NCBI GenBank assembly: GCA_049968235.1
Contig: JBMFRC010000001.1
Location: 96,001 to 160,000 of the forward strand
Length of the DNA stretch: 64,000 nucleotides
Reading direction: 5' to 3'
Origin: Candidatus Hydrogenedens sp.
GTDB lineage: Bacteria; Hydrogenedentota; Hydrogenedentia; Hydrogenedentales; Hydrogenedentaceae
Part shown: piece after piece, positions 21,920 to 49,067 of the stretch
How the letters are laid out: the number at the start of each line of letters is the position of its first letter
How positions within the stretch are numbered: position 1 is the first letter of the stretch
The notes under the pieces: model-generated
The model's database searches: none
Seen by the model: only the letters and a program-made list of their open reading frames with translations
Told to the model about the DNA's origin: nothing
Program-made: the position numbers and the translations under genes

Positions 21920-21922
21920 TTT

Positions 21923-27900: not shown

Positions 27901-29533
27901 CATAATTTTGGGTGTCCTCTTGATTCTTTTTGGTACGGTCATACATGGGGACACCCTGGTAAGGACCGCTGGGAACGAACCCTCTCAGCACAAACGGAGG
28001 TCCTGGTAACTGAATCGGTTCTGTATCTACTGATTCTTTAATTGTAAAGAAATCTATTATATTATTGGGACCTATATATGCGTAAGATTCAAAATTATTT
28101 ACTAACAAATCATAATCGTTGTCCAGACAATCTACATCATCCGCAGTTAAGGTATACCGCATTGAACCTGAAGGAGTATATCGAACCACATCTATAGAGG
28201 AAGGCATAATCACTTCCAGATACACTAAGTTTCCATTTTCATCGGGCACCATATCATTACGGTCTATTATCCCATCAGCATTCCAATCAACTTTCATCCG
28301 TAAACCCGGCAAAGGTGCTGTAAAAAAAACCTTTTGTTCGGCACTATCATCTACAATTCCATCACAGTTATTATCTAATCCATCATCACCTCCCCAATAT
28401 ACAAAAGCACCTACTTCAAACATTTCTTCGGGGTCCACTGTTTCATCGGGGGATTTATCTGTTGGGTCTTCTTGTGGTAATGCTTCATTCTGGAGGAAGA
28501 AAGGTCCCATTTCTTCATTAATCCCATTATCCGGTGTTTCGTCAATCAAACCATTTAAATTATTGTCCAAACCATCATTATGGCTCTGATGAATCTCTCC
28601 TGCAGAATCATAGACAACACCACTAAACAATTTATCTCCTGCCATTGGCATCCACACTGCATCTTTATAACCGTCACCATCTAAATCTACATCTGCCCAT
28701 GCATTTACCCATTCGGGAGTATACAAACTACTTGTAGCATAAGAATTTCCATTTCTGTCAAAACCTGTAAAAACAGGAGTACCATCCGGATTACGGACTG
28801 TTCCAAACATTGAGGGGAGAAGAAATGGTGCAGAACTTTTGGGAATGTCTCCTTCGCGAGTAATATCATCAAAAGTTTCTGCATTTACATTAAAACGGTA
28901 ATACAGAAAATTAGAGCCATCTTTTTGTGGAACCGAAACCCAACTGGATGAATTGGGTCCGGGAACAACTAATTCTGCATTTAAATCATAAAGAATAGGA
29001 GCATTGAAATCTTCAAGGCGTGGATAAAATAACCATTCTCGACTACGCGGTCCATTATATAACATTTCTGAGTAACCATCGGCAAAACGGACATACAAGA
29101 AACGATTTTCCGGGGGTAAACTTAACATAAACCCTTGCAAATTGGGGAAATTAATCCATAACCGTGCAATGTCAACATGCGGAATACTTCCCTTCCACTG
29201 CATTGAAGAACGGAGTGCAAAATATCCCCTACCTGCACCGGAATTTCTAAGTGCCCAGGGTTTGCCCGCAACCCAGGCACCGCTAAAAAAAGAACGCCAT
29301 ACATGGTCAGTCGAAGAAGCATAAGGGTGCTGATTTATATCGTTGTTCAATACAGAAATACCGATATTTAGTGCTCCTCTTAAAAGTTGGTCCGCCTGTG
29401 CTTGACGGAGCGATAATTCCGCTGTGTATAATTCACCCCTTGTTACAAAATAAAAAGTAAAACCGATGGCAAGAAGAATGGCAATAATTCCAATAGCAAG
29501 GACTAATGCCGCGCCCGTTTCAGGTTTTCGCAT
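21923..29533 (-). CDS. pilX: Giant protein (2,536 aa) with a PilX_N-type N-terminal domain (type IV pilus minor-pilin PilX-like) and multiple DxDxDG calcium-binding-loop motifs.
   Basis: The N-terminus MRKPETGAALVLAIGIIAILLAIGFTFYFVTRGELYTAELSLRQAQADQLLRGAL matches the PilX_N pattern, in which a hydrophobic helix is followed by 'A...AE.GL'. Repeated loops include DVDLDGDGYKD, DGLDNNCDGIVDD, NGLDDDGDGIIDNG, DGYDNDGDGGY and DGVDNNQNGVIDD. An AAGGAGAG Shine-Dalgarno lies 7 nt upstream of the ATG. The gene sits directly after the PilW-like gene, which is the canonical pilX slot. Confidence 0.6.
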   Translation of the reverse strand: MRKPETGAALVLAIGIIAILLAIGFTFYFVTRGELYTAELSLRQAQADQLLRGALNIGISVLNNDINQHPYASSTDHVWRSFFSGAWVAGKPWALRNSGAGRGYFALRSSMQWKGSIPHVDIARLWINFPNLQGFMLSLPPENRFLYVRFADGYSEMLYNGPRSREWLFYPRLEDFNAPILYDLNAELVVPGPNSSSWVSVPQKDGSNFLYYRFNVNAETFDDITREGDIPKSSAPFLLPSMFGTVRNPDGTPVFTGFDRNGNSYATSSLYTPEWVNAWADVDLDGDGYKDAVWMPMAGDKLFSGVVYDSAGEIHQSHNDGLDNNLNGLIDETPDNGINEEMGPFFLQNEALPQEDPTDKSPDETVDPEEMFEVGAFVYWGGDDGLDNNCDGIVDDSAEQKVFFTAPLPGLRMKVDWNADGIIDRNDMVPDENGNLVYLEVIMPSSIDVVRYTPSGSMRYTLTADDVDCLDNDYDLLVNNFESYAYIGPNNIIDFFTIKESVDTEPIQLPGPPFVLRGFVPSGPYQGVPMYDRTKKNQEDTQNYDYSFAKFAMPGNWNPADKSKFSAVREASYIEINKFKDSGGNPFLPGVQVFPGRGIYRDGIAGITRTINYTRLIPYIHITHTGEPVCDLVGRMAVYIEDESKKVNLNIAGGHYPIDFNFSAPNPLLASRLFHSYFIPGISSPWLIGYGLDTRYLPDMGVIRARKLWNLLTGAPGGQIDSSQSDYILNTNSNALYYDVAFPGYGAVDDNANAFLLFTNGLDDDGDGIIDNGVNDLLGILEGIDEPGEFQYTLPYVNKLAERDRVDNNTNNNVDESGELGDRIISTLDQISELSDYGTPGTKAFEKVKPVITTMGLSKNTQIRKFGTSLRGINPVNVNYTTPQQLASTIFLSEKPVPSINTMSWRMPMGEDAYYFAQGLRSYEHEWNTWFGADKNEVGFLFYYDDGTNEPISAINSTTNYVFPVDAVLKTMQLAVNLIDIRDTDVAQTRLTTEKVPDPMTSIEKRVYLPSQNINSLSPYEKGYHPSNFSLREIEQYAKNTLGEFNIDWVINDYWWSERVQNGTNSEDGTPMKDLRSISYTVAGVDSIRITELMVRPVRRVEAEVPVYQSIYNSYRSNYPPGIPLFLTDFEPLSNRFPDDNNHDIIPANPWNLANNNVLGKGNYYETNLPVFQYIDRTTVPPQTISVPNVVEYRIRATNSLPAGRYYLMLNTQNLSGEPTLQRGSNKRIKYAIKYCPINVNNPADTTDDTLIEPSILDDVFADPTIVTNDAVFQRVQDTWIGVNARGETTGMVFLPGQLESGTLIPPNYYWMDGILPENQPLSGKTFTITVPPYTPADGQANDYAVCIAFWLEQNPNNEPIALNFLDFSQEPDHEYIEITNISNNPIDLTGYTIEIGIPRDNSGVRTDPFKVTAKIGDENDVNNRYIIAPKGRLLLTFDSSSDLIGDKFDHYRDPNLTPASLIKRNGIGLCDVIPTAPVPPELEPLVGITTPFMALNETNNVFHREYINNGLEEDFTDYNGDGTPGDNPADNEIRSTPNDNNFNIVGPRKAWDRIVPLYAVEFPLIDGENTERRKTEEITTLNDLAKLVLQGGMLPDYPEHDGYDNDGDGGYLTGMGSYILGTLEKDGVDNNQNGVIDDRPTDFNNPLNVFFNEGVDEGRVEPGTTYTNGRVYGYGSYEQGMMPIFHLKDMSVIGGNVDVDFITDPYDQVQPINITTGFNYIGNPNLIEPYFGTDNDPPQWKYFVERRWNPGDCVVVALYDTKGNQVDGVSYNEYDVINRCIDDILPAPNSSMQLNADFSSWWIPDCMLWDFYRSLNRKSPELSGDRFGLSNRWEATDGFYDDWEESPHYLEQLVLVMLDNVAPNNFPLFQYTNNNPYRDKRDIDFVVNTYRGTPLGKSYTEIALSGKDFSFPIVSLPDSPVINGRSITLLYPYWNIEQRRDVGTIYTGTLSQVGIPIQREYLYSLYRLRQVFPNPDYRYLFDLNRQNLTLYPVVGGETFWRQVWTSANVLACQLQGKDELSRVLKGASSMITIAEKILTVGTADFIPIRPNPAETDVFPSGSNLTDILRCELASNTYPEAWVPLFLFMLPGEIYNYPRFVDGSLWNGTFPTPYNTLFNAQPNGSWLFNNNSAFGRPQIDINDIAQRWEIPKRIFAYVSSYRSVYPEQNRPEALFVWDVNDGLENGDYYVYINVVNEKQLRRLQQYDEQLHASGNPPYELFSQEFGKLWINKEYDTTRVRLALEIITDPAKARGLKPRGSTIETGLTHPDDWYRTEVGGYYEDVVDFSPNEDGIILYGQQAAASWQPQMVRVTQKFVALRVRNIGDTPCFLTHITLVPAKSSLHKINVNTIGPYIYTDGSQKRIFASSMCLPGFYYRSNILPKNQDLNNPVYGVNPIPPTNAVYADNVSDTILSAFQLSYLLMTNRPEYADGRYYLSPIELANTINSKYLLPLSVNTNYNGRIADVLPRYESVADHVSLRSDVFKITALVQLGYGVDGNNDGCYSYRTNDEFVVQSEARASVIYERSVPTARYEED

Positions 29534-33763: not shown

Positions 33764-35005
33764 TTATTGTGTACCATTGATGGTATCTCCGAGTGTAAAT
33801 ATCGGTAAGTATAAGGATACTACAATAAAACCGATAATACCACCTAAAACGATAATAATTGCGGGTTCCATTAATGACAACATAGCCTCGACAGCCGCTT
33901 CTACCTCTGCATCGTAGATGTCTGCTACCTTATGGAGCATAGCATCAAGGCTACCCGTTTCTTCACCTACATCAATCATATTAACGACCATTGCTGGAAA
34001 TACTTTGGTCTGGTCCAGCGGTGCAGCAATTGTATCTCCTTCTTTTACACTATCATGGACTTTATCAACGGCGTCCTGAATAATTTCGTTTCCGATGGTT
34101 TCCTTTGTAATTTTTAATGCCTGTAAAATAGGTACACCGGAAGTAATTAGCGTTCCTAATGTTCGGGCAAATCGTGCCACAGCTACTTTAGTAACCAAAT
34201 CCCCAATTAAAGGCAATTTTAGAACAACCCGGTCCCGAAATCGTCGAACTGCATGAAATTTAAAAAGAATTTTTATAAAAATAATCGTCCACGATACAAT
34301 GGCAATAAGCATCCACCAGTTATATATCATAAAGTCCCCGGCTTTCATAAGAAATTGTGTTGGCCAGGGTAATTGTCCTCCGAATTCTTTGAAAATGTCT
34401 GCAAAAACAGGGACGACTTTTATTAACAGAAACATCACAATGGCCGAAGCGATAATAAGAACGGCAATAGGATAAATCATGGCGGATTTTACACGTCGTT
34501 TTAATGCTTCTCTTCGTTCCATAAATTGTGCTATTCGTTGAAGCACAATTTCTAACATACCACCAACTTCACCCGCTTTAACCATATTTACAAAAAGGCG
34601 GTCAAATTGCTTGGGATGTTTTGCCAATGCTTCGGAAAATGTGCTACCTGACTGAATATCCGTTGATATTTCTCGTAAAATATCCTTTAATTTACTGGGT
34701 TTCATTTGCGCAATCAGCACATTCAGGCTTCGTAGTAACGGCAAACCTGCATCAATCAGGGTAGATAATTGGCGTGTCATAACCACAAGTTGTTTGGTCT
34801 TTACGCCACCGAAATAGAGTTCGCTTAATCCTTTCTTCTCACCTCTTGCCCTTCGCTCATCACTCCGACGGGCTTCACGGACGTGTGTGGGAAACAGTCC
34901 TAAACTTCTTACATCATTAATCGCAAGGGCAACACTATCCGCTTGGATAATACCAAAGATTTCTTTTCCTTCACGATTAATTGCTCGATAAGCATATTTA
35001 GGCAT
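33764..35005 (-). CDS. pilC: Type IV pilus inner-membrane platform protein PilC (GspF family).
   Basis: It has two T2SSF repeats (LSTLIDAGLPLLRSLNVLIAQ... and LGTLITSGVPILQALKITKETIGN...) and three TM segments. Its 413-aa size is typical. It follows the PilB gene. Confidence 0.85.
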   Translation of the reverse strand: MPKYAYRAINREGKEIFGIIQADSVALAINDVRSLGLFPTHVREARRSDERRARGEKKGLSELYFGGVKTKQLVVMTRQLSTLIDAGLPLLRSLNVLIAQMKPSKLKDILREISTDIQSGSTFSEALAKHPKQFDRLFVNMVKAGEVGGMLEIVLQRIAQFMERREALKRRVKSAMIYPIAVLIIASAIVMFLLIKVVPVFADIFKEFGGQLPWPTQFLMKAGDFMIYNWWMLIAIVSWTIIFIKILFKFHAVRRFRDRVVLKLPLIGDLVTKVAVARFARTLGTLITSGVPILQALKITKETIGNEIIQDAVDKVHDSVKEGDTIAAPLDQTKVFPAMVVNMIDVGEETGSLDAMLHKVADIYDAEVEAAVEAMLSLMEPAIIIVLGGIIGFIVVSLYLPIFTLGDTINGTQ

Positions 35006-35022
35006 GGTTCCAATTCCTTTTT

Positions 35023-36801
35023 TTAATCTTCATAATAGTCTGTATGGGCTATCACTTCTTTTGCAGAAGTAACACCCTGAACACATTTTATTATACCTTC
35101 CTCGCGTAATGTTCGCATACCTAATTTCTTTCTCGCATATCTACGAATATCATACGCCATTGCACGGTCTAAAATCATTTCACAAACAGTTTCATCTACC
35201 TGTAAAATTTCAAATAAACCTGTTCTGCCCATATAACCAATATAATCACATGCGGGGCATCCTTTGGGTCGGAACAATTGAAGTTTCGGGTCATCCTGCC
35301 AATTTTTCGGTAAGCCTAATTCTTGCATCTCTTCTTTTGATGGACGATACCGTTCTCTGCAATGCCTGCAAAGACAACGCACCAACCGTTGTGCCAATAC
35401 CGCCTCTAAGGAAGCGGTTATCAGGTAGGGTTCAACATCCATATCCAGTAGACGGGTAATTGTTTCAGGAGCACTATTGGTATGCAAGGTACTTAACACA
35501 AGGTGCCCTGTTAATGATGCCTCTACTGCAATTTGTGCCGTTTCAAGGTCACGGATTTCACCGACCATTACAATATCCGGGTCCTGACGCAAGATAGAAC
35601 GCAAACCTGCTGCGAAGGTTAGTCCTACTTCTTCATTTACCTGACATTGCATTACCCTATCTATTTGCAATTCTACGGGGTCTTCCATCGTAATAATTTT
35701 TACTTCTTCGCTATTTAATTTTGCAATACACCCATATAAGGTAGTTGTCTTTCCTGAACCCGTAGGACCTGTAACTAACAAGATACCATTAGGACGGGCT
35801 AAAACATCATCCAACTTTGCTTTTACATTTTCACTTAACCCTAAACGGTCTAAATCGATACGGACCGCAGTTCGGTCCAAAATACGCATTACCACTCCTT
35901 CACCATACAATGTAGGAAGTGTCGCAACACGGATATCTATAATACTATCCCCAACTTTCAATTCAATACGCGAGTCTTGTGGTAATCGTCGTTCACCAAT
36001 ATCCATATTACACATAATTTTTACACGGGATACTAATGCAATTGCTAAAGTCTTGGGAGGATTGACAATTTCATGCAGAACGCCATCTACACGGATACGA
36101 ATACGAAAACGGTCTTCATATACTTCAAAATGAATGTCGGACGCCCTTTTCTTTACCGCTTCTAAAAATACCAGATTAACGATTTTAATAACTTCGGGCA
36201 ATTGTGCCAATTCCACCAAATTTTCAGTATCTTTGACAATTTCCTGTGTTCCCAATTCTTCAAGAGATAAATCTGAAGAACCTACTTTATCCTGCAATTC
36301 GGAAATCATCTCATGGATAGAATCGGTTTCGAAGGAATAATTATTTTTCCATGCGATGGCAATATCCTGCGGATTGCTAATAGCCCCCCGAACAGGCTGA
36401 CCGGTAATATGTCGTAAATCATCTAAAATTTGTAAATTTAAGGGGTCTGCCATTGCCACTACAAGGACACCATCTACCTCTTTGATAGGAATAACATTGT
36501 AAAAGCGAGCCACATCAGACGAAATTTTTCGTATAATATTTTCGGGGATTTTCAGTCGGGTAACATCAATCTTTTCCATCCCCAGTTGTGTTCCCAGCGC
36601 CTCGACAATTGCTTGCTCATCGCAATAGCCCATAGATACCAGCACACGACCTAAGAAATCGCCTGTTAATCGCTGTCGCTGGAGTGCTTCGTCCAATTGA
36701 AGTGGAATAATTATTCCCTGTTCTACCAGAATATCACCTAATCGACGCTGGTTAATTTGTGTGGTCTTTGTTTGACTGTGTTTCGCTAATGCACTTGACA
36801 T
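35023..36801 (-). CDS. pilB: Type IV pilus extension ATPase PilB (GspE family), with an N-terminal T2SSE_N domain.
   Basis: It has the Walker A motif [16 protein letters not shown], Asp and His boxes (DPDIVMVGEIRDLETAQIAVEASLTGHLVLSTLHTNSA), and the tetracysteine motif CRHCRERY...CPACDYIGYMGR. Confidence 0.85.
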   Translation of the reverse strand: MSSALAKHSQTKTTQINQRRLGDILVEQGIIIPLQLDEALQRQRLTGDFLGRVLVSMGYCDEQAIVEALGTQLGMEKIDVTRLKIPENIIRKISSDVARFYNVIPIKEVDGVLVVAMADPLNLQILDDLRHITGQPVRGAISNPQDIAIAWKNNYSFETDSIHEMISELQDKVGSSDLSLEELGTQEIVKDTENLVELAQLPEVIKIVNLVFLEAVKKRASDIHFEVYEDRFRIRIRVDGVLHEIVNPPKTLAIALVSRVKIMCNMDIGERRLPQDSRIELKVGDSIIDIRVATLPTLYGEGVVMRILDRTAVRIDLDRLGLSENVKAKLDDVLARPNGILLVTGPTGSGKTTTLYGCIAKLNSEEVKIITMEDPVELQIDRVMQCQVNEEVGLTFAAGLRSILRQDPDIVMVGEIRDLETAQIAVEASLTGHLVLSTLHTNSAPETITRLLDMDVEPYLITASLEAVLAQRLVRCLCRHCRERYRPSKEEMQELGLPKNWQDDPKLQLFRPKGCPACDYIGYMGRTGLFEILQVDETVCEMILDRAMAYDIRRYARKKLGMRTLREEGIIKCVQGVTSAKEVIAHTDYYED

Positions 36802-36831
36802 ATTACAAACTTTCTTTTATGTCTTCTTAAA

Positions 36832-37941
36832 CTATGCAACTTCTCCTTCTTTCTTGGGAGCAGGTCCACCTTCAATACCCAAAGCACGCGCAGCCGCTTC
36901 AAATTCATCCGGCATCTGTGCTTTGGCAAGGCAGTCTTCATATTTGCAAATACCCTTACGATACAGGGCAAGTAGATGTTCATCCAGCAAATTCATACCA
37001 TACTTATGTCCCGTCTGAATAGCGGATGTAATACGATAGGTTTTATTTTCACGAATTAAGTTTTGAATAGCAGGGGTACAATACATAATTTCATACGCAG
37101 CCACACGACCAAAACCACTTTTCCGGGGGACAAGAGTCTGGGAAATCACTGCTTTTAAGTTACCTGCTAACTGGGTCCGAATTTGTTCCTGCTGGTTTGA
37201 TGGGAAAGCGTCCACGACACGGTCTACCGTTCTCACCGCACCTGTGGTGTGAAGGGTTGCGAATACAAGGTGCCCCGTTTCGGCTGCGGTAATTGCCGCT
37301 TCGATAGTTTCGAGGTCACGCATTTCCCCGACGAGAATTACATCCGGGTCCATACGCAATGCTCTTCTCAAAGCCTCTGCGAAAGTCGGTACATCTACAC
37401 CTACTTCACGCTGGGTAATAATTCCTTTTTTATGGGTGTGATAGTATTCTATTGGGTCTTCAATAGTAATAATATGAGAATCTAAATTAGTATTAATCCA
37501 ATCAAGCATGGTAGCCAATGTTGTTGTTTTTCCGGAACCCGTGGGTCCTGTAATCAGAACCAATCCACGCGGTTGTCGGAGTAAGTTTTCTATATGTCGG
37601 GGCAAACCTAATTCTTCAAAAGTTAGTATTTTGCGAGGGATTAGTCGCAATACGATACCTACATACCCCTTTTGTTTAAAAATAGCCACACGGAAACGTG
37701 CAATATCCTCAAATGCGAAACCGAAGTCAGAACCACCTACTTCTTGCAATTCTTGTTGATTATCTACAGAAGCAATACTTTTCATTAATCGTTCGGTATC
37801 TTCGGGCGTTAATGGGTCTTCACCAAAGAAAACCAATCGACCGTGAACTCTTCCCACAGGAGGATTATCCACCGCAAGATGTAAGTCAGAGCCTTCACGG
37901 TCTATCAACATCCGCAATAAACTTACCATTTCATAAGCCAT
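36832..37941 (-). CDS. pilT: Twitching-motility retraction ATPase PilT.
   Basis: The whole 369-aa protein is close to canonical PilT: [77 protein letters not shown] and AIQNLIRE. The size is typical. Confidence 0.9.
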
Positions 37942-37963
37942 ATATGTATCTCCTTATATTCAA

Positions 37964-39805
37964 TTATACTGCAACAGCAGGTTTGCGAAGAGGTTCATCA
38001 ATTCGTGTCCGTTTATTAACTTCTTCGACTGTAGTAATACCCATAGTCGCTTTACGCCATGCATCTTCACGCATGGTGGACATTCCCGATAAGCGGGCTT
38101 CTCTTCGAATTGCCGTCGCGGACTCTCCTCGCATGACCATTTCACGAATACGGTCTGTCGTTTGTAACAATTCATAAACGCCCAATCGTCCTTGATAACC
38201 CGTCTGATTACAATTGTCACAGCCCGCACCATGATATAACTCAATTGTAGAGAGGTCTACAGGAAAACCCAATCGGCGAATTTCAAATTCCGGAGGAACG
38301 CAGGGTTCTTTACAAACAGTGCAAATTGTTCTCACCAATCGTTGAGCAAGTATTGCGCGAATACCGGATGCCACAAGGAACGGTTTCACGCCGATATCCA
38401 CCAATCGGGTAAATGCGGTAGCGGTATCATTGGTGTGTAATGTTGAGAAAACCAGATGCCCTGTTAATGCGGCTTTAATAGCAATTTCAGCAGTCTCTAA
38501 GTCACGGATTTCACCGACCATTACAATATCGGGGTCCTGGCGGAATATAGCACGCAAAGCCCGGGCAAAATCCCAGCCAATTTCATGGTTGATTTGCACC
38601 TGATTAATCCCTGTAATTTGATACTCCACAGGGTCTTCTAAAGTAATAATTTTTACATCGGGCTGATTTAGATTATGGAGAGAAGCATAAAGGGTGGTGG
38701 TCTTCCCTGAACCTGTAGGTCCCGTAACCAGAACAACACCTGTAGCATGCTGAATTATTCGCTCCCAATTGTTTTGGACCTCTGGACTAAAGCCTAACTG
38801 CCCCAAACCTAACATAAGCCCGCTTTTGTCAAGAATACGCATAACGACACTTTCACCGAACACAGCTGGCAGAGAACTCACACGAAGGTCTATCACTTTA
38901 TTCCCTAATGTCATTTTGATTCGTCCATCCTGTGGAACCCGCCTTTCGGAAATATCCATCCCTGCCATAATTTTAAGTCGGGATATAATAGCTGCCTGTG
39001 CCCGTTTGGGGGGTAACGGCATTAAATGCATTACACCGTCTATACGATACCTTACTTTTACATCGGTTTTTCCAGGTTCGATATGTATATCACTTGCTCG
39101 TAAACGAAATGCTTCTAATATCATCTGATGAACATACTTTACCACAGGATTATCTGCATCCCCTTCTTCCATACCTTCTGTTGTTATGGATGTAGAAGGA
39201 AGATTCGCATCATCCATACTAACACTGCTTAAAGAAATATCGCTGGCACTAAAACTTGATGAAGAAGCCAAGGAACTATCAAACGAACTTACATTGGACA
39301 TCGAAGATAAGGAACTTACACTGCTGGCACTACTCGCAGAACTTAACAAGCTCTCTACTGTGGCTTCATGAACTCCATAATATTTCCCTAAAGCCATCGT
39401 TATTTCCTCAGGAGAAGCAAGAACTGGCTCTATGGGACGGTCAAGAAGTCGGGAAATATTATCCAGATTATTGACATTGGTCGGGTCCGATGTCGCAATA
39501 ATAACTTTATCCCCTCGCACTTCCACAGGCACTACTTTATAAAGTGTCGCTATGCTTCCATCCATAATATTACGAACACGCTCCGGCACATCCCTCTCAC
39601 TTAATTTTATTATAGGAATACCTAATTGTTCCGATAATGTCTCGATAATATGACTTTTGCTGATATACCCTAAACGAACAAGGATTTCTCCTATTTTTCG
39701 ATGCGACATCGTTGTTTGCTGGCGATGTATTGCTTCTCGAAGTTGCTCTTCGGATATTATTTTCTTCTCAACAAGTATCTGACCGAATAACTTATAAGTA
39801 CTCAT
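37964..39805 (-). CDS. pilB: Second PilB/GspE-family ATPase. It carries a serine-rich low-complexity linker between the T2SSE_N domain and the ATPase core.
   Basis: It has the Walker A motif [17 protein letters not shown], the core DPDIVMVGEIRDLETAEIAIKAALTGHLVFSTLHTND, and the Cys motif CTVCKEPC...CDNCNQTGYQGR. The insert reads SLLSSASSASSVSSLSSMSNVSSFDSSLASSSSFSASDISLSSVSMDDANLPSTS. Confidence 0.85.
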   Translation of the reverse strand: MSTYKLFGQILVEKKIISEEQLREAIHRQQTTMSHRKIGEILVRLGYISKSHIIETLSEQLGIPIIKLSERDVPERVRNIMDGSIATLYKVVPVEVRGDKVIIATSDPTNVNNLDNISRLLDRPIEPVLASPEEITMALGKYYGVHEATVESLLSSASSASSVSSLSSMSNVSSFDSSLASSSSFSASDISLSSVSMDDANLPSTSITTEGMEEGDADNPVVKYVHQMILEAFRLRASDIHIEPGKTDVKVRYRIDGVMHLMPLPPKRAQAAIISRLKIMAGMDISERRVPQDGRIKMTLGNKVIDLRVSSLPAVFGESVVMRILDKSGLMLGLGQLGFSPEVQNNWERIIQHATGVVLVTGPTGSGKTTTLYASLHNLNQPDVKIITLEDPVEYQITGINQVQINHEIGWDFARALRAIFRQDPDIVMVGEIRDLETAEIAIKAALTGHLVFSTLHTNDTATAFTRLVDIGVKPFLVASGIRAILAQRLVRTICTVCKEPCVPPEFEIRRLGFPVDLSTIELYHGAGCDNCNQTGYQGRLGVYELLQTTDRIREMVMRGESATAIRREARLSGMSTMREDAWRKATMGITTVEEVNKRTRIDEPLRKPAVAV

Positions 39806-40548: not shown

Positions 40549-42108
40549 TTATTTTTTCTCTGCACTGGTTTGAGGTGAAGCATTATTTTTTTGTGGGAGC
40601 GAAGACTTTTGTACTTTTTGTATTCGTATTGCAAAACTGGTTTGATTTCCTTGAGCACTTAATTCTGGCTCATCCACAATATTAAAATAACTTACCTTCT
40701 TTAATTCAGAAATCGCCTGATTTATAAAAGCGGAATCGCCGGTTGTTCCCTGTATTCGAATCCACCAACTTTGCACATCAGGCGAACTTAATTTAATTTC
40801 TGTAATATTCACTTTATCCGAGGGCAGTTTTTCGGCAATGGTATTTAGTATATCCAGAAGAGGGGGGTCAAAGAAGGGAGATAAATCTATATTCTCATCC
40901 AGCCCTTTCTCCTGATTAACTCGATCTATTTCCTGGGTTAATTCATTTGCCTTTGCTTTATATAGATTACTATAAACAAGATTATTTAGTGTTAATTGTT
41001 GAAGGAAAAAGGCACCGCATACAAGCCCGGTCAGGATAAGACAATTGGTAAATATCAAATGACGGGATAAAGAGGATAAATAGGAATATAAGGATTGGTT
41101 TTCTTTTAGCAAATTAAATGAAAAGTAGGGGTCTAATGTTATTCCTGCTATACCCATGAGAGGATACCAGCGGGAAAGTGATTCCTCGGATTCTGCTTTC
41201 ATAGTATTTGGGAAAAGTAAAGATTGAGATAAAGAAACAGGCTCCACTTCCATCTTTACCAATCGTGAAAAAACACCTATCTCTTCATCGGATAAAGATA
41301 ATCCACTAATTTCTAATTTTTCTATTCCTTCTTTACTTTTCCATCGGGCAAGAAATGCTCTTAGGCTATTTTGTACTTCCCGGGCAAAAATTTCAGGATT
41401 CTCATAATAATTCTGAACACCTAATACCAGATGCCGTATAAAAACGAGTTTTCCTTCGTAAAGAACAGCAAGCGTAGAGAAATCTTTATGAACCACCAAA
41501 GCAGATTTTAATTTTTTTGTTTCTTTGCTTGCCTTTTCCCAGAGATATACTAAACCGAGTGAATTAATAACTGCAGTTTCGGGTTCTACAGAAAATTCCC
41601 GTAGGTATTGGATATAGTTTTGTATATGCTGTTTGCGGACACCCATCGTCAATACTTCTGTCTCTTTTTTTGTTTCATTCACCACAGTAAAATCAAGCAT
41701 TAACTCTTCAATGGGGAAAGGAATATGGGGTTCTAATTCAAAGCGAAGAGCAGACACTACTTTCTTCATTCCCCGAAATGGAACTGTTAATGACCGCACG
41801 ATACTTACAGAACACGGAACGGAAAGGGCAAAACATGTTGGTTTATGTTTTAATTGTTTAAAGGCTTCCTCTAATGCATTCAATACAGGTTCATCTTTAT
41901 TGGGCGTTTCTTCTGCTGAAATTACAGGCACTTCAATATCTTGAAGTAATTCAAGATTTTTACCTTTTTTTCGAACGGTTGCTAATCGAACCACATTTTC
42001 GCAAATCTCAATTGTTGTTACCAAATTTCCCATGTGTCTTTCTTTCGTTTTTATGGCTTTTATGGCTATATATTTTTTATTTTTCCCTATTATTTTATAA
42101 CTTTCCAA
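40549..42108 (-). CDS. gspL: GspL-like protein. It has a cytoplasmic actin-like domain, a single TM helix and a periplasmic domain, and may be a PilM/PilN-type fusion.
   Basis: The topology matches. The N-terminal about 300 aa are soluble (LVTTIEICENVVRLATVRKKGKNLELLQDIEVPV...). The TM helix is LIFTNCLILTGLVCGAFFLQQL and a C-terminal domain of about 170 aa follows. It sits between gspK and the gspM-like gene. The annotated start overlaps gspK by 19 nt, so the alternative start MGNLVTT (about 42033) is plausible. Confidence 0.5.
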   Translation of the reverse strand: MESYKIIGKNKKYIAIKAIKTKERHMGNLVTTIEICENVVRLATVRKKGKNLELLQDIEVPVISAEETPNKDEPVLNALEEAFKQLKHKPTCFALSVPCSVSIVRSLTVPFRGMKKVVSALRFELEPHIPFPIEELMLDFTVVNETKKETEVLTMGVRKQHIQNYIQYLREFSVEPETAVINSLGLVYLWEKASKETKKLKSALVVHKDFSTLAVLYEGKLVFIRHLVLGVQNYYENPEIFAREVQNSLRAFLARWKSKEGIEKLEISGLSLSDEEIGVFSRLVKMEVEPVSLSQSLLFPNTMKAESEESLSRWYPLMGIAGITLDPYFSFNLLKENQSLYSYLSSLSRHLIFTNCLILTGLVCGAFFLQQLTLNNLVYSNLYKAKANELTQEIDRVNQEKGLDENIDLSPFFDPPLLDILNTIAEKLPSDKVNITEIKLSSPDVQSWWIRIQGTTGDSAFINQAISELKKVSYFNIVDEPELSAQGNQTSFAIRIQKVQKSSLPQKNNASPQTSAEKK

Positions 42109-43364
42109 TCCAAAATACGGAATGGCTCTGGAGGTAGCCCTCCTTGATTTTGGACTGTTGTGGAATTATTGTTTGTTCGTTGCATATTTCGAGTTAAATT
42201 TTGTTGATTTGTTTTGTTGGTAGCAGGGTTTATGTTGGGGTTCAGTCCTGAGTTACTGACATCACCTAACTCCATAGGATTACGGAAGACATACGTTTCA
42301 ATTCGCACCATTCTTTTTTGATAAAGCCCATCACCATATATTCGAAAAGCATTGCTCTGGAGAGTAAAAATTTGTCCTGACATAACATAGCGTTGAGTGC
42401 GATTATCCGGTCTTTCGGCAGGTGTAATAACTGGTTTCCCTGCTTGTTGGGGAGTATTTCTTCTCTGTGTTGTCGGTGGTTTGGGTAAAATACCATAGGC
42501 ATCTAGTTGGCTTAAATCTGTAAACGGTTGTGTATGTGCATCATCAAAAATTCGCTGTCCTAAACCTAAATCTGCGGGATTTCCTGTATAACCACTGACA
42601 ATTGCTGCTATTACTTCAGGTTGGGCAGAATTAATGTTTACCCTACCCAGCCAATCTCCATGAACAGTAAAATATTCCGATAGAGGTAACTGATTCTTCT
42701 CCGGGTCACCAAAATATATTTCCGGTGTAATTCCTTTAATCAACAGCAATTCCTCGATTGAATCCATAGGACCATTCTTACATGAGTATGGATTTTCCAA
42801 TCCCATATAATAATCGTTCTCTGCTCCTTGAGGTCTTTCAGAATCGCCCTCATTGTAATCTAACCAGTCGAGAATAGAATCAACAATAATATCCGGACTG
42901 GCACCTTTTCCTGTATCACGTAAGGCAAAAAATTCTTTTAAAGCATTAACTAGAGGTGTCCGTTCTTGAGGTTCTCCTCCAGATTGTGGAACCAGTAAAG
43001 CATTCAAATTTATTTTCCCATATTCATCTGATATTGAAGCATGCATAAGAGCATTATTTAATGGCTCTGTTCCTGCACTCATATTAAAAGAAAGAAGGTC
43101 AAAATCGCTATCTATGGGTGGAGCACCACTCATCATGGTATTTAAATTATCCTCTGCAAGATATGCAATTGCTTTAGCCACTGCAGATTTCGCAGCCAGA
43201 TACGCTTCCAGGTCTCCCTGTTGACTATATGCTAAAGAAGCCTCAACTTCTGCCTCATATAAAAATTCAACTACAATAATGGACAGTAAAGCGATAAATA
43301 CTAATGCAAGAATAATGGCTACTCCTGTCCTTTTGCAAAGTTGAATTTTCGATTTTAATTTCAT
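42090..43364 (-). CDS. gspK: Type II secretion minor pseudopilin GspK.
   Basis: The N-terminus KRTGVAIILALVFIALLSIIVVEF matches the GspK 'RGxALxxVLxxxALL' start, which lacks the +5 Glu. The C-terminal GITPEIYFGD...VNINSAQPEVIAAIV corresponds to the GspK helix-hairpin-helix 'iNiNtA' motif. It lies between the gspJ-like and gspL-like genes. Confidence 0.7.
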   Translation of the reverse strand: MKLKSKIQLCKRTGVAIILALVFIALLSIIVVEFLYEAEVEASLAYSQQGDLEAYLAAKSAVAKAIAYLAEDNLNTMMSGAPPIDSDFDLLSFNMSAGTEPLNNALMHASISDEYGKINLNALLVPQSGGEPQERTPLVNALKEFFALRDTGKGASPDIIVDSILDWLDYNEGDSERPQGAENDYYMGLENPYSCKNGPMDSIEELLLIKGITPEIYFGDPEKNQLPLSEYFTVHGDWLGRVNINSAQPEVIAAIVSGYTGNPADLGLGQRIFDDAHTQPFTDLSQLDAYGILPKPPTTQRRNTPQQAGKPVITPAERPDNRTQRYVMSGQIFTLQSNAFRIYGDGLYQKRMVRIETYVFRNPMELGDVSNSGLNPNINPATNKTNQQNLTRNMQRTNNNSTTVQNQGGLPPEPFRILDWKVIK

Positions 43365-46041: not shown

Positions 46042-47280
46042 TCATCCTCCAACATGTGTACTCATTTTTAGTATAGGCAATAAAATCGCCAGAACCAGAA
46101 ATCCGACGAAAATACCCATTACTACTATTATAACGGGTTCTATCAGTCCAACGATAGCATCAACGGTCAAACGAACATCTTCATCATAGGTATCTGCTAT
46201 CTGAATTAACATATTTTCCAGTTCACCACTTCGTTGCCCTAATTCAACCATATGAATCATCATAGATGGAAATATTCCGGAATCTTTCATAGGCTGAGCC
46301 AGGTCTCTACCTCTACGGACACCTGCTTTTATATCATCCAGATGCATTTGAATGAACCGATTATCCATAATACTATAAACAACATCCAGAGCAGGAAGCA
46401 TGGTTAAACCGCTTTGAAGCATTGTCCCCAATGTCCGTGAGAATCTTGCACAAAGTAATTTTTGAAGTAAAGTACCATAGAGCGGAATTTTAAATTTCCA
46501 TCGGTCCCATTTTTTTTTGCCTTCTTCGCGACTAACCCATATCCGCCATATTATTATCAGAAAAAATAAAAAGCCTATGAAGAATATGCCGTATTTCCCT
46601 AAAAAGGAGCTTACCCCTATAAGCACATCGGTAATGAAAGGTAGTTCTGATTGTTGTTTCTTAAAAATAGTCGTGATTCGAGGGACAATAACAGTCATCA
46701 TAAAAGTAATAACCGTAATAGCAAAAACGGTCATAAAAGCAGGGTAGGCAATGGATGATAGTATCTGTGCTTTTATCTTTGCCTGTCGGTCTAAAACATC
46801 TGCCAGACGATTTAATACCTGCTCTAATGTTCCACTGGCTTCTCCAGCACGAACCATATTTACATAAAGAGAACTAAAAATACGGGGATGCTCTGCCAGT
46901 GCGTCTGCGAGATTTTTCCCGGCATTTACTTTATCACGGACATCCAGTATTGCGGTTTTTAATCGTTGACGGGATGTTTGATTTATTAATGCATTCAGGG
47001 CTTCTACCAGAGGCATACCGGCACGGAGTAGCACTGCAAACTGTCGTGTCATTAAGGCTACGTCTCTTGTTGAAACACCGCCACCAAACAGGAAAAACTG
47101 CGATTTTCCTTTCCCTCCTTCTTTTAAACTAACACCATCTGTAACTTCTTTTAGTTCGGTGGGATAAAGGTCTAACTCCCGTAATTTCATTCGTGCTAAT
47201 GCAGGTGAATCCGCGTCAATTACGCCACGCGTTGTTTTTCCACTATCTTTTATTAGTGCTTTATATTGATAAACAGGCAT
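46042..47280 (-). CDS. gspF: Type II secretion platform protein GspF.
   Basis: It has two T2SSF repeats (FAVLLRAGMPLVEALNALINQT... and LGTMLQSGLTMLPALDVVYSIMDN...) and three TM segments. It is 412 aa long and follows gspE. Confidence 0.85.
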   Translation of the reverse strand: MPVYQYKALIKDSGKTTRGVIDADSPALARMKLRELDLYPTELKEVTDGVSLKEGGKGKSQFFLFGGGVSTRDVALMTRQFAVLLRAGMPLVEALNALINQTSRQRLKTAILDVRDKVNAGKNLADALAEHPRIFSSLYVNMVRAGEASGTLEQVLNRLADVLDRQAKIKAQILSSIAYPAFMTVFAITVITFMMTVIVPRITTIFKKQQSELPFITDVLIGVSSFLGKYGIFFIGFLFFLIIIWRIWVSREEGKKKWDRWKFKIPLYGTLLQKLLCARFSRTLGTMLQSGLTMLPALDVVYSIMDNRFIQMHLDDIKAGVRRGRDLAQPMKDSGIFPSMMIHMVELGQRSGELENMLIQIADTYDEDVRLTVDAIVGLIEPVIIVVMGIFVGFLVLAILLPILKMSTHVGG

Positions 47281-47327
47281 ATTTTCTCAAAATATTATAA
47301 AGGGGTGTTTTTTTTCTTGCTTTCTTT

Positions 47328-49067
47328 TTAATAGGTTTCTTCAAATACATCGTCTCTGGTTACCCGAAGGACTTCTTCCAATGTTGTTAATCCTTTCAAC
47401 ATTTTTTCTGCTCCGTCTTCACGGAGGGTACGCATTCCTTCTTTATGTGCTTCTCGTTTAATTACATTTGAGTCCGCTCCTTCAAGAACTAATTCTTGTA
47501 TCCTCGGACTCATCATTAATAGTTCAAATATTCCCGTTCTGCCATAATAACCCCGTTCCATACACTTTTGACATCCTTTACCTCGCCATAAAGTTTCTGC
47601 TCGTGGGTCGGGCTTTTTTATACCTAATTCTTCTAATGGATTTCGGTCAGGTTTATATGGTTCCTTACATTGGGTACAAATTTTACGCACCAATCGCTGG
47701 GCTTGAATTGCAATACAGGAAGAGGTAACAAGAAAAGGTTCAATTCCCATATTCGTAAGTCGGGTGATAGCACCTGCACTATCATTTGTATGTAATGTTG
47801 CAAAAACGAGATGTCCTGTTAAAGATGCTTGAACTGCCATTTCGGCTGTTTCTAAATCACGAATTTCACCTACAAGAATAATATCCGGGTCCTGTCTCAA
47901 AATACTTCTTAAACCTGCTGCAAAGGTCAATCCTATTTTGGGACGAACCTGTATCTGTCCAATCCCCGCAATTAAATATTCTATAGGGTCTTCTAAGGTA
48001 ATAATATTTTTGTCGGGAGAATTAACCCTCTGCAAGGAAGCATATAAAGTTGTAGATTTTCCAGAACCAGTAGGTCCTGTAACTAAAATAATTCCGTGGG
48101 AGACTGTAATAATGCGGTCAAACATCTTGTGGTCGCGTTCATCCATTCCCAAATCTTCCAGGCTGAACAGGAAATTCCCTTTTTCAAGGATACGTAAAAC
48201 CACGCGTTCACCAAAAGCGGTTGGGAGTATGGACACACGAATATCAATTTCTTTGCCACTTAACTTAATTTTTATACGTCCATCCTGTGGTAAACGATGC
48301 TCTGCAATATTGAGATTGGACATGATTTTAATACGCGAAATCACCGCTGCCTGCTGAGATTTGGGTATTGTAAATTTCTCATACAGAACGCCGTCAATAC
48401 GATAGCGGACACGGACTTCGCGTTCAAATGGCTCAATATGAATATCCGACGCCCTTTCTTTAACCGCTCCTGTAATAAGTAAGTTGATAAGTTTAATAAT
48501 CGGTGCTTCATTAGCAAGGTCCAGCAGGTCCTTTTCGGTCTCTGTTCCATCTAAGGTATGGATGGTTGTCGCACCGTCTTCTTCTGCCATTGCTATTGTA
48601 TCTATCATCTCAGCGGTATTTTGCGTTTGACTGTCAAAATAAGAATCTACAATTTTTTGTATATCTGATTTACGGCATAAAACGGGCTGAACTGAACCAC
48701 CGAGAAGTACCCGTAGGTCATCCAGAGGCAGGAGATTTATAGGGTCATTTAAGGCAACCAGATAACCGTTCCCGTTTTGTTTAAACGGAACCATAAAATA
48801 TTCGCGAATAAAATTTATTGGAACTTTCGTAATCAGGTTCATATCCACCTGTTGTGAAAGATTTAATTCCATTGGGATTCCAAACTGTTCGCTTAATGCT
48901 TCCAGAACATGTTCTTCTTCTACAAAACCGAGGTCCAGCAAAATCTCTCCTAACCGGCGCGGTTTAATCTTCTGGAGTTCTAAAGCCTCCGTTATTTGCT
49001 CCGGATGAACATATCCTTTTTGGAGTAAAATTTCTCCAAACTGCATTTCAGCGAGTAACTTATCCAT
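47328..49067 (-). CDS. gspE: Type II secretion ATPase GspE.
   Basis: The N-terminal T2SSE_N motif is GEILLQKGYVHPEQITEALELQ. It has Walker [19 protein letters not shown], the core [39 protein letters not shown], and the tetracysteine CTQCKEPY...CQKCMERGYYGR. It overlaps the gspD stop by 1 nt. Confidence 0.85.
   Translation of the reverse strand: MDKLLAEMQFGEILLQKGYVHPEQITEALELQKIKPRRLGEILLDLGFVEEEHVLEALSEQFGIPMELNLSQQVDMNLITKVPINFIREYFMVPFKQNGNGYLVALNDPINLLPLDDLRVLLGGSVQPVLCRKSDIQKIVDSYFDSQTQNTAEMIDTIAMAEEDGATTIHTLDGTETEKDLLDLANEAPIIKLINLLITGAVKERASDIHIEPFEREVRVRYRIDGVLYEKFTIPKSQQAAVISRIKIMSNLNIAEHRLPQDGRIKIKLSGKEIDIRVSILPTAFGERVVLRILEKGNFLFSLEDLGMDERDHKMFDRIITVSHGIILVTGPTGSGKSTTLYASLQRVNSPDKNIITLEDPIEYLIAGIGQIQVRPKIGLTFAAGLRSILRQDPDIILVGEIRDLETAEMAVQASLTGHLVFATLHTNDSAGAITRLTNMGIEPFLVTSSCIAIQAQRLVRKICTQCKEPYKPDRNPLEELGIKKPDPRAETLWRGKGCQKCMERGYYGRTGIFELLMMSPRIQELVLEGADSNVIKREAHKEGMRTLREDGAEKMLKGLTTLEEVLRVTRDDVFEETY

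What the first reader, a model, noticed from the sequence alone, without database searches (positions are those of the whole stretch)
39160..39370. Serine-rich disordered linker inside a PilB-type assembly ATPase
The second GspE/PilB paralog (37964..39805) has an insert of about 55 aa consisting almost entirely of Ser with Leu/Val/Ala. It reads SLLSSASSASSVSSLSSMSNVSSFDSSLASSSSFSASDISLSSVSMDDANLPSTS. It lies between the N-terminal T2SSE_N domain and the ATPase core. In other systems that N-domain mediates c-di-GMP or MshEN-type regulation or platform binding. A poly-Ser tract in a cytoplasmic motor ATPase is unusual. It could be a phosphorylation hub for Ser/Thr kinases or simply a flexible tether.
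Basis: seen in the sequence. Interest (0 to 1): 0.5.

Follow-up and report, generated by a model that had tools for sequence, protein, structure and literature searches.

The report
Conserved serine-rich spacer in pilus motor
One of two pilus-assembly motor proteins in an uncultured Hydrogenedentota bacterium carries a real serine-rich segment between its sensor and its engine; the segment is specific to that lineage and tightly conserved, so it is probably functional rather than a loose tether, but what it does is untested.

Summary
ORF 37964..39805 (minus strand, 613 aa) is a PilB/GspE-type ATPase. Residues 152-206 (window 39188..39352) read exactly as quoted, with 28 Ser in 55 residues. Background Ser in the window is 6.4%, and this is the only such tract in it.

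It is not an artefact. There is no DNA tandem repeat, all six Ser codons are used, and the same tract appears in many independent assemblies.

It is lineage-specific. All 120 close homologues (70-100% identity, Candidatus Hydrogenedens/Hydrogenedentota) have it. Of the 150 nearest 50%-identity family representatives, only the orthologous cluster does.

It is not a freely drifting linker:
- Residues 148-198 are as conserved as the folded domains, with pN/pS 0.24 against 0.21 for the N-domain, at saturated synonymous sites.
- The following acidic stretch (199-218) is variable, with pN/pS 0.55.
- Eight consecutive hydrophobic-polar-polar triplets occur, a run reached in 1 of 200,000 shuffles.

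AlphaFold2 gives pLDDT below 50 for residues 147-216.

Best reading: a selected, monomer-disordered module of about 30-45 aa added upstream of the usual acidic ND1-ND2 linker in the first gene of a conserved operon (PilB2-PilT-PilB1-PilC). It probably acts as a binding or modification element. Phosphorylation is untested, and no kinase gene lies nearby. This is a new variant of a known kind and of moderate interest.

The parts
37964..39805 (-). PilB/GspE-type assembly ATPase 'B2' (613 aa), the first gene of the type IV pilus operon. Walker A is at 362-369, the Asp box at 390-394, Walker B at 424-435 and the His box at 448-458, with tetracysteine C495/C498/C529/C532.
   Evidence: Pfam T2SSE 1.9e-135 and PF05157 6.7e-17. 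TIGR02538 PilB 635 bits and TIGR02533 GspE 588 bits, both below their equivalog cut-offs. The catalytic motifs are invariant in 101 orthologues. The closest solved structures are Geobacter and Thermus PilB/PilF.
39626..39787 (-). ND0, the MshEN_N-type c-di-GMP motif region (residues 7-60). Motif I is LFGQILVEKKIISEEQLREAIHRQ, followed by a 7-residue spacer. Motif II is KIGEILVRLGYISKSHIIETLSEQ.
   Evidence: NF053729 scores 60.9 bits against a cut-off of 38. Motif II fits the relaxed pattern of Wang et al. 2016. Motif I fails at position 1 (Leu instead of R/K/P/N) and, in the window sequence, at position 10.
39365..39625 (-). ND1, the T2SSE_N / GSPII alpha-beta domain (residues 61-147).
   Evidence: Pfam PF05157 at 61-147. 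AF2 pLDDT is 80-86.
39212..39364 (-). Conserved Ser-rich module (residues 148-198). It begins with the family-typical post-ND1 helix (TVEsML). A Ser-rich insert of about 30 aa follows, overlapping eight (hydrophobic-Ser-Ser/Thr) triplets that start at L154. It ends with an S-D-[IL]-S-[LM] motif shared with paralog B1.
   Evidence: Mean top-residue frequency is 0.82, against 0.78-0.87 for the folded domains. pN/pS is 0.24 with pS 0.83. The run of 8 triplets is reached in 1 of 200,000 shuffles. hhalign against the B1 profile shows the insert as gaps in B1. AF2 pLDDT is 28-36.
39152..39211 (-). Variable acidic stretch (residues 199-218). It is the counterpart of the canonical acidic flexible ND1-ND2 linker of PilB.
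   Evidence: Top-residue frequency is 0.40, entropy is 2.4 bits and indels are present. pN/pS is 0.55. X. citri PilB has an acidic, Gly-rich linker of about 30 aa at this position (PMC8389850).
36832..37941 (-). PilT retraction ATPase, the gene immediately downstream.
   Evidence: TIGR01420 scores 461 bits against a cut-off of 319. Its adjacency to B2 is conserved in all related loci that extend far enough.
35023..36801 (-). Second PilB-type ATPase 'B1' (592 aa), with a canonical MshEN motif I and a short, non-Ser-rich linker.
   Evidence: Pfam and NCBIfam results. The strict motif RLGDILVEQGIIIPLQLDEALQRQ is present. The linker alignment is and synteny.
33764..35005 (-). PilC/GspF platform protein of the same operon.
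   Evidence: Pfam T2SSF. TIGR02120 scores 428 bits against a cut-off of 424. Synteny is shown.

Best explanation
The tract is a functional module specific to Hydrogenedentota. It was inserted into the ND1-ND2 connector of one of two PilB-type extension ATPases of a type IV pilus operon with the gene order B2-PilT-B1-PilC-pilins.

The anatomy is shown. A c-di-GMP-type sensor module (ND0 plus ND1, residues 1-147) comes first, followed by a short family-typical helix (about 150-158). Next is a Ser-rich insert of about 30 aa, overlapped by a Ser-rich stretch with a hydrophobic residue at every third position. An S-D-I-S-L motif shared with the paralog follows, and then the ordinary variable acidic linker (199-218). 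The ND2 domain and the ATPase ring complete the protein.

The mechanism is inferred. The module is unstructured in the free monomer and keeps its exact sequence because it is read by something else. The preferred reading is that it forms an extended (PPII- or 3-10-like) segment. In that form its hydrophobic stripe and hydroxyl faces would dock on a partner, or on the motor itself, when the hexamer sits under the PilM/PilC platform. This would set how the sensor module is coupled or tethered to the motor and would distinguish B2 from its paralog B1. Multi-site Ser/Thr modification of the same segment is a compatible add-on, not a demonstrated feature.
For: Shown:
- The tract is real and non-random.
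- It is present with conserved length and sequence in all 120 closest homologues, with six Ser columns invariant and no indels in the core.
- pN/pS is 0.24 in the tract, 0.21 in ND1 and 0.55 in the adjacent acidic stretch, while synonymous sites are saturated at pS about 0.8. The constraint is therefore on the protein and not on DNA or RNA.
- The (hydrophobic, polar, polar) x8 run is reached in 1 of 200,000 composition-preserving shuffles.
- The tract is absent from 149 of the 150 nearest 50%-identity representatives of the family and from both paralogs in the window.
- The profile-profile alignment shows an insert of about 30 aa relative to B1, flanked by homologous segments.
- The operon order B2-PilT-B1-PilC is conserved across Hydrogenedentota-type genomes in which these proteins are down to about 70% identical.
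- The catalytic motifs are intact.
- AF2 pLDDT is below 50 for residues 147-216.
Against: - No partner is identified, and AF2 was run on the monomer only.
- The alignment depth is limited to one lineage (at least 67% identity), so covariation is uninformative.
- Conservation in a low-complexity segment is partly inflated, because Ser aligns with Ser. The non-Ser columns (V150, L154, A160, L166, M169, N171, I190) are also 88-100% conserved, with I190 the lowest at 88%.
- The shorter linker of paralog B1 is about equally conserved in the same genomes (0.78). Strong linker conservation is therefore not unique to the Ser tract.
- The hydrophobic moment at 120 degrees over the whole 51 residues is not significant (about 8% of shuffles), because the register shifts once near residue 176.
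- PPII or 3-10 geometry is inferred from periodicity alone.
Confidence: 0.5

Rival explanations
1. The tract is a multi-site Ser/Thr modification hub. Phosphorylation by Hanks-type kinases, or cytoplasmic O-glycosylation, would change the charge or stiffness of the connector. This would gate coupling between the c-di-GMP sensor and the motor, or the choice between the two PilB paralogs.
For: Fifteen columns are Ser in at least 15 of 17 sequences. In 101 orthologues six Ser columns are invariant and five more are at least 90% Ser. Replacements at Ser/Thr-majority columns are mostly Thr (370), against Gly 71, Asn 43, Asp 39 and Ala 35. Ser/Asp alternation occurs at positions 176, 188 and 193. 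An acidic cluster follows directly. AF2 predicts the region to be accessible and disordered.
Against: No kinase, phosphatase, FHA or glycosyltransferase gene lies in the 64-kb window or upstream of the operon in the two related loci checked, L009 and L011. No published case of Ser/Thr-kinase control of PilB was found. Modification alone does not explain the equally strict conservation and period-3 spacing of the hydrophobic residues. The Thr counts are not phylogenetically independent.
Confidence: 0.2
2. The tract is a plain flexible spacer (a polyserine-type linker). It only lengthens the tether between the N-terminal module and the motor, and its sequence is irrelevant.
For: AF2 pLDDT is 28-36. 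The ND1-ND2 connector is variable in length and low-complexity across the family, and several relatives have Gly/Asn/Ala/Pro-rich linkers of similar length. Polyserine linkers are known in secreted bacterial carbohydrases (PMC2386152 and PMC2699552, listed).
Against: The core has position-specific conservation and no length variation across genomes whose synonymous sites are saturated. The neighbouring acidic stretch in the same protein does drift, with pN/pS 0.55 and indels. The period-3 pattern is non-random.
Confidence: 0.12
3. The tract self-associates. Six copies per hexamer, or copies from different hexamers, would pack into a collar or a condensate that clusters motors, for example at a pole.
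For: The segment is low-complexity, Ser-rich and carries regularly spaced hydrophobic residues. Six copies emerge from one face of the ring, by analogy with the solved PilB hexamers matched.
Against: There is no direct evidence. AF2 was run on the monomer only. The tract is net acidic and lacks aromatic or Arg stickers. This is pure inference.
Confidence: 0.1
4. The feature is a by-product of selection on the other strand (antisense ORF 39186..39371, 61 aa) or on DNA or RNA.
For: An antisense ORF exactly overlaps the tract, and that antisense frame is free of stops in 16 of 17 orthologous sequences.
Against: In that antisense frame a stop can arise only opposite a sense Tyr codon or a sense His/Gln codon, and the tract contains none of these. 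The frame is therefore open by composition. The one sequence with a Gln (L008) has the one stop. Synonymous sites are saturated, with pS 0.83 and third positions freely varied within AGY and TCN. There is no nucleotide-level constraint, and no tandem repeat is present.
Confidence: 0.02

Closest known systems
Acidic, Gly-rich flexible linker between ND1 and ND2 of PilB (e.g. Xanthomonas citri PilB residues 161-193; Llontop et al. 2021, PMC8389850)
   Same: It occupies the same position in the same protein family, is predicted to be disordered, and tethers the regulatory N-terminal module to the hexameric motor. Residues 199-218 of this protein are the direct counterpart, being acidic and variable.
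   Different: Here an extra module of about 45 aa (an insert of about 30 aa plus flanks that have become Ser-rich) lies upstream of the acidic stretch. It is 50-60% Ser, is conserved in sequence and length, and is periodic with a hydrophobic residue every third position.
MshE/MshEN-type PilB ATPases that bind c-di-GMP (Wang et al. 2016, PMC5013675; Dye & Yang 2020, PMC6957770)
   Same: The domain order is ND0 (a pair of 24-residue motifs), ND1, a linker, ND2 and the ATPase. The protein matches the NF053729 HMM above its cut-off.
   Different: Motif I has Leu in place of the guanine-contacting Arg, and the inter-motif spacer is 7 residues rather than 5. Both features are conserved in the orthologues. 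No Ser-rich module is described for MshE or PilB.
Polyserine linkers of secreted carbohydrate-active enzymes (Saccharophagus degradans, Teredinibacter turnerae; PMC2386152, PMC2699552)
   Same: These are bacterial Ser-dominated interdomain segments that are presumed to be flexible.
   Different: According to my own knowledge, those linkers are near-homopolymeric, variable in length and found in exported proteins. This one is cytoplasmic, of mixed composition (Ser plus Leu, Met, Val and Ala), fixed in length and conserved position by position.
Serine-rich repeat glycoproteins of Gram-positive cocci (GspB, Fap1, Srr1/2; reviewed in PMC5900788)
   Same: They have Ser alternating with small or hydrophobic residues, and their Ser residues are O-glycosylated in the cytoplasm.
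   Different: Those proteins have hundreds of dipeptide repeats in exported, wall-anchored adhesins, with a dedicated accessory Sec system and glycosyltransferases. None of that context is present here.

Membership tests
PilB/GspE-type type IV filament assembly ATPase (Pfam T2SSE PF00437 plus T2SSE_N PF05157) | Both Pfam domains score above their gathering thresholds | tested here: met
   PF00437 scores 451.7 bits (cut-off 24.9) and PF05157 scores 61.7 bits (cut-off 23.1).
PilB/GspE-type type IV filament assembly ATPase | Walker A, Asp box, Walker B, His box and the tetracysteine Zn motif are present | tested here: met
   GPTGSGKT is at 362-369, EDPVE at 390-394, DPDIVMVGEIRD at 424-435 and GHLVFSTLH at 449-457, with C495/C498/C529/C532. 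The key residues are invariant in 101 orthologues, and the few remaining positions are at least 90% conserved.
PilB/GspE-type type IV filament assembly ATPase | Genomic association with PilT, the PilC platform and pilins | tested here: met
   The order B2-PilT-B1-PilC-pilins is found in the window and in the related loci.
Type IV-A pilus PilB equivalog (NCBIfam TIGR02538) | Score at or above the equivalog cut-off of 675.65 bits | tested here: not met
   The score is 635.1 bits. GspE TIGR02533 scores 587.8 bits against 630.25. The protein is therefore a PilB-like family member and not a certified equivalog of either.
MshEN c-di-GMP receptor domain (Wang et al. 2016) | Match to the MshE-related c-di-GMP motif HMM | tested here: met
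   NF053729 scores 60.9 bits against a cut-off of 38, over residues 7-60.
MshEN c-di-GMP receptor domain | [quoted passage not shown] | tested here: inconclusive
   Motif II (K37-Q60) fits the authors' relaxed pattern. Motif I (L6-Q29) has Leu at position 1 where the pattern requires R/K/P/N, and Lys at position 10 in the window sequence (Gly in most orthologues). The spacer is 7 residues.
MshEN c-di-GMP receptor domain | Actual high-affinity c-di-GMP binding | not testable with these tools
   This requires ITC or DRaCALA on residues 1-147.
Polyserine flexible linker (secreted CAZyme type) | Near-homopolymeric Ser, variable length between orthologues, and an exported protein | tested here: not met
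   The tract is 51% Ser with conserved non-Ser positions. The core has no indels in 120 homologues. The host is a cytoplasmic ATPase with no signal peptide evident in the N-terminal sequence, which is a c-di-GMP motif region.
Serine-rich repeat glycoprotein | Long dipeptide Ser repeats with accessory Sec and glycosyltransferase genes | tested here: not met
   There is one 51-aa tract with no DNA or protein tandem array. No such genes occur in the window.

The most novel reading that the evidence does not exclude
The (hydrophobic-Ser-Ser)x8 module may be a previously undescribed regulatory element of a type IV pilus motor. It would be an extended, PPII-like 'hydroxyl ladder' whose multi-site phosphorylation or glycosylation, or whose docking on a partner such as PilM, PilT or the paralogous PilB, switches which of the two extension ATPases engages the machine. 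This would add a control layer between c-di-GMP sensing and ATP hydrolysis.
Probability: 0.12. Interest if true: 0.6.

Novelty: new variant of a known kind. Interest (0 to 1): 0.35.

Why it matters
Type IV pilus motors are controlled through their N-terminal modules, and the connector to the ATPase ring is usually dismissed as an acidic flexible tether. In this case a whole candidate phylum-level lineage has kept a 50-residue low-complexity segment in that connector essentially unchanged, with strict three-residue periodicity, while the neighbouring true linker drifts. If the segment is a docking or modification element, it would show that the connector itself can carry regulatory information. 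It would also give a handle on how two PilB paralogs share one machine. The organism is uncultured and the effect is confined to one lineage, so the general impact is moderate.

Tried and rejected
- Sequencing or slippage artefact. TRF found nothing, and identical tracts occur in independent assemblies. Rejected.
- Antisense gene at 39186..39371. The open frame is explained by the absence of Tyr, His and Gln codons in the tract, and synonymous sites are saturated. Rejected.
- Locus search with an alignment of the tract. It failed because no stretch was conserved enough after back-translation. It was replaced by a search with window residues 60-260.
- Hydrophobic moment at 120 degrees over the whole tract. 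It was not significant, being reached in about 8% of shuffles. The run-length test on triplets was significant, and the register shifts once near residue 176.
- Kinase, phosphatase, FHA or glycosyltransferase genes in the neighbourhood. None was found in the window or upstream of the operon in L009 and L011.
- Literature. Searches for serine-rich + PilB + linker, PilB + phosphoproteomics + kinase, and Hydrogenedentes + type IV pili returned nothing relevant.
- Ser-rich tracts as a general trait of this genome. No other real ORF in the 64 kb has one.
- A protein search with the tract alone. It was not run, because more than 120 orthologue clusters would have filled the 120-row output.
- A second AF2 job.
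Full report
**Observation.** The minus-strand ORF 37964..39805 encodes a 613-aa protein. Pfam places a T2SSE_N domain (PF05157, now called 'MshEN') at residues 61-147 and the T2SSE ATPase at 217-597. It contains 28 Ser in 55 residues, plus Leu, Ala, Asp, Val and others. Ser makes up 6.4% of the 19,481 residues of the window's long ORFs. The chance expectation of such a segment anywhere in them is about 5e-15, and no other real ORF in the window has even 30% Ser in a 40-aa window. Tandem Repeats Finder finds no DNA repeat at a score threshold of 30, and all six Ser codons are used. Proteins 98-100% identical, with the same tract, come from NCBI, ENA, JGI and Logan assemblies. 'Almost entirely Ser' overstates a 51% Ser content.

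**Organism and context.** The best hits are annotated Candidatus Hydrogenedens sp. or Hydrogenedentota, and the nearest GTDB species genome is Ca. Hydrogenedens terephthalaticus. The window holds two adjacent type IV filament systems.
- The first is a T2SS-like cluster. It comprises GspC (51769..52731), the GspD secretin (49067..51724), a GspE-like ATPase B3 (47328..49067) and GspF (46042..47280). It continues with pseudopilins, GspK (42090..43364), a GspL/PilM-PilN-like protein (40549..42108) and a 170-aa protein.
- The second is a T4P-like cluster that begins with the Ser-tract ATPase (B2). After it come PilT (36832..37941), a second PilB-like ATPase B1 (35023..36801) and PilC (33764..35005). 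Then come three prepilin-like genes, two giant ORFs, PilM (12180..14270) and a TPR-secretin (7420..10677).

In all 16 related genome loci the order B2-PilT-B1-PilC-pilins is kept wherever the contig extends far enough. The upstream genes differ between loci: some have the T2SS cluster, whereas L009 and L011 have unrelated metabolic genes on the other strand. B2 is therefore the first gene of the pilus operon. Its catalytic motifs and Zn-binding cysteines are conserved, mostly invariant, in 101 orthologues.

**Lineage specificity.** All 120 best homologues (70-100% identity, 611-634 aa) have the tract. An exhaustive HMMER scan of 1.84 billion 50%-identity representatives returned 17,752 family members at E below 1e-30. 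Among the 150 nearest, only one (P0121, 67% identity, the orthologous cluster) has a Ser-rich segment, with a maximum Ser fraction of 0.47 in 40 aa. The median for the others is 0.15 and none exceeds 0.25. The score drops from 893 to 652 bits after P0121. In most other hits the match breaks into two stretches at the linker. Both other paralogs in the window lack the tract. Other family members do have connectors of similar length, but theirs are Gly/Asn/Ala/Pro/acidic-rich. The position is a known variable spot, and what is special here is the composition and its conservation.

**Not a drifting linker.** Across 99 homologues at 80% identity or less, residues 148-198 have a mean top-residue frequency of 0.82 and an entropy of 0.75 bits. 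The folded domains give 0.78-0.87. The next 20 residues (199-218, acidic) give 0.40 and 2.4 bits and contain indels. The conservation is not only Ser aligning with Ser: V150, L154, A160, L166, M169, N171 and I190 are 88-100% conserved.

On codon alignments of the window plus the 16 genome loci, pN/pS differs by region:

| Region | pN/pS |
|---|---|
| Ser tract (148-198) | 0.24 |
| ND1 | 0.21 |
| Acidic stretch (199-218) | 0.55 |
| Start of ND2 | 0.08 |

pS is about 0.8 throughout, which is saturated. Third codon positions vary freely within the AGY or TCN families, and three conserved Ser columns use both families. The constraint therefore acts on the protein.

A matched control tempers the claim. 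The shorter, non-Ser-rich linker of paralog B1 is about as conserved in the same genomes (0.78). Conserved connectors are thus a feature of both paralogs in this lineage.

**Internal anatomy.** A profile-profile alignment of B2 and B1 orthologues aligns ND0, ND1 and a short post-ND1 segment (B2 TVEsML with B1 SIHEML). AF2 models that segment as a weak helix at 150-158. The alignment then leaves about 30 B2 residues unmatched. It realigns B2 S-A-S-D-I-S-L with B1 G-S-S-D-L-S-L and continues through the acidic stretch into ND2. The acidic stretch corresponds to the acidic, Gly-rich flexible linker of about 30 aa described for X. citri PilB (PMC8389850).

Within the tract, starting at L154, there are eight consecutive (hydrophobic, polar, polar) triplets: L-S-S/T, V/A-S-S, A-S-S, M/V-S-T/S, L-S-T/S, M-S-N, L/V-S-S, L/F-D-S. 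A run this long is reached in 1 of 200,000 composition-preserving shuffles, for both the window sequence and the consensus. After a one-residue register shift the pattern resumes. This shift is why a simple 120-degree hydrophobic moment over all 51 residues is not significant. A period of exactly three does not fit an amphipathic alpha-helix or beta-strand. It would give a single hydrophobic stripe on a PPII or 3-10 helix, which is inference from geometry and not a result.

**Structure prediction.** AlphaFold2 with 101 orthologues gives pLDDT 80-86 for ND0/ND1 and roughly 45-86 across ND2 and the ATPase core. It gives below 50 (28-36) for residues 147-216. As a monomer, the tract is predicted to be disordered.

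NCBIfam NF053729 (MshE-related c-di-GMP motif domain) matches residues 7-60 at 60.9 bits, against a cut-off of 38.
- Motif II (KIGEILVRLGYISKSHIIETLSEQ) fits the relaxed pattern of Wang et al. (PMC5013675).
- Motif I (LFGQILVEKKIISEEQLREAIHRQ) has Leu where the guanine-contacting Arg should be.
- The spacer is 7 residues rather than 5.

The last two features are conserved in the orthologues. Paralog B1 has a perfect strict motif I. Whether B2 binds c-di-GMP cannot be decided here.

**Mechanism.** The following points are shown:
- The module is lineage-specific, inserted and under purifying selection.
- It is periodic and disordered as a monomer.
- It lies between the sensor module and the motor.
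- It sits in the first of two PilB paralogs of a conserved operon.

Because sequence, and not merely length or composition, is preserved, the segment is most likely read by a partner or an enzyme. I favour a docking or coupling element that becomes ordered in the assembled machine (confidence about 0.5). A multi-site Ser/Thr modification hub is a compatible alternative or addition (about 0.2). In its favour, Thr dominates the replacements at Ser columns (370, against Ala 35 and Gly 71), and Ser/Asp alternates at three positions. Against it, there is no kinase, phosphatase, FHA or glycosyltransferase gene nearby and no literature precedent. A plain spacer (about 0.12) is disfavoured by the contrast with the neighbouring acidic stretch. 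Self-association into a collar or condensate (about 0.1) is untested. Selection on the antisense ORF 39186..39371, or on nucleic acid, is rejected. That antisense frame can acquire stops only opposite Tyr, His or Gln codons, which the tract lacks, and synonymous sites are saturated.

**Comparison with known systems.** The protein is a PilB/GspE-family ATPase by Pfam and by its motifs, but it is below the equivalog cut-offs for both PilB (635 against 675.65 bits) and GspE (588 against 630.25 bits). The tract is not a polyserine linker of the secreted-carbohydrase type and is not a serine-rich-repeat glycoprotein segment. It shares only composition with them. I found no description of a conserved Ser-rich module in a type IV filament ATPase in the searchable literature.

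**Verdict.** The finding is a real and statistically robust feature: a new variant of a known kind of protein. Its 'disordered linker' reading is only half right, and its phosphorylation idea remains open. Interest is moderate (0.35). It is a neat, testable oddity in an uncultured lineage, but it does not by itself open a major question.

Noticed in passing
window 33764..39805 and 46042..49067: The window holds three PilB/GspE-type ATPases (B1 35023..36801, B2 37964..39805, B3 47328..49067), one PilT and two PilC/GspF genes. A T2SS-like cluster abuts a T4P-like operon in which two extension-type ATPases flank PilT. The B2-PilT-B1-PilC order is conserved across Hydrogenedentota loci.
   Followed up: partly
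window 39626..39787 (B2 residues 7-60): The MshEN c-di-GMP motif I of B2 has Leu in place of the guanine-contacting Arg, and the spacer between the motifs is 7 residues instead of 5. Both are conserved in 101 orthologues. Paralog B1 keeps a perfect strict motif, so the two paralogs may differ in c-di-GMP responsiveness.
   Followed up: partly
window 15998..29533 (-): Two giant ORFs (2536 aa and 1973 aa) sit inside the pilus cluster between the prepilin genes and PilM. The first has only a sub-threshold Lamin Tail Domain hit and the second has no Pfam hit at all. They may be pilus-associated surface or adhesin proteins.
   Followed up: no
window 55399..63696 (-): A 2765-aa ORF with PKD and IPT/TIG domains lies upstream of the T2SS-like cluster. 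A weak Matrixin-like 805-aa ORF at 52915..55332 lies next to it. Both are possible T2SS substrates.
   Followed up: no
window 40549..42108 (-): A 519-aa protein with a TTG start combines PilM_2/T2SSL-like N-terminal and PilN-like C-terminal matches, which suggests a GspL-type fusion. It also has a weak hit to the Amuc_1101 PilM-like family.
   Followed up: no
window 12180..14270 (-) and 14525..15922 (-): PilM here is 696 aa, about twice the usual length. The neighbouring gene encodes PEGA domains fused to an FGE-sulfatase (formylglycine-generating enzyme-like) domain.
   Followed up: no
window 39186..39371 (+): A 61-aa antisense ORF exactly overlaps the Ser tract, and its translation looks Leu/Glu/Lys-rich and helical. 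The frame is open only because the sense tract lacks Tyr, His and Gln codons, so it is not a gene.
   Followed up: yes
L001 9688..16602 (Ca. Hydrogenedens terephthalaticus AWNW01000041.1): In the closest named genome the PilT match stops after 136 aa, and the next matches are the prepilin-like genes on the opposite strand. B1 and PilC are missing at this place. This is a rearrangement or a mis-assembly in that draft genome.
   Followed up: no
L005, L006, L010, L012, L014, L016: Several contigs titled 'uncultured Nitrospirales bacterium' carry this Hydrogenedentota-type operon, with B2 70-90% identical to the window protein. The record titles are probably placeholder or mistaken taxonomy.
   Followed up: no
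P0263 (1029 aa family representative), residues about 276-315: A distant PilB-family representative has a connector reading ...SSELSIMASLDNLYGDSVDSLADSIGS..., with a faint Ser/hydrophobic alternation (23% Ser). It is the only hint of anything similar outside the orthologous cluster.
   Followed up: no
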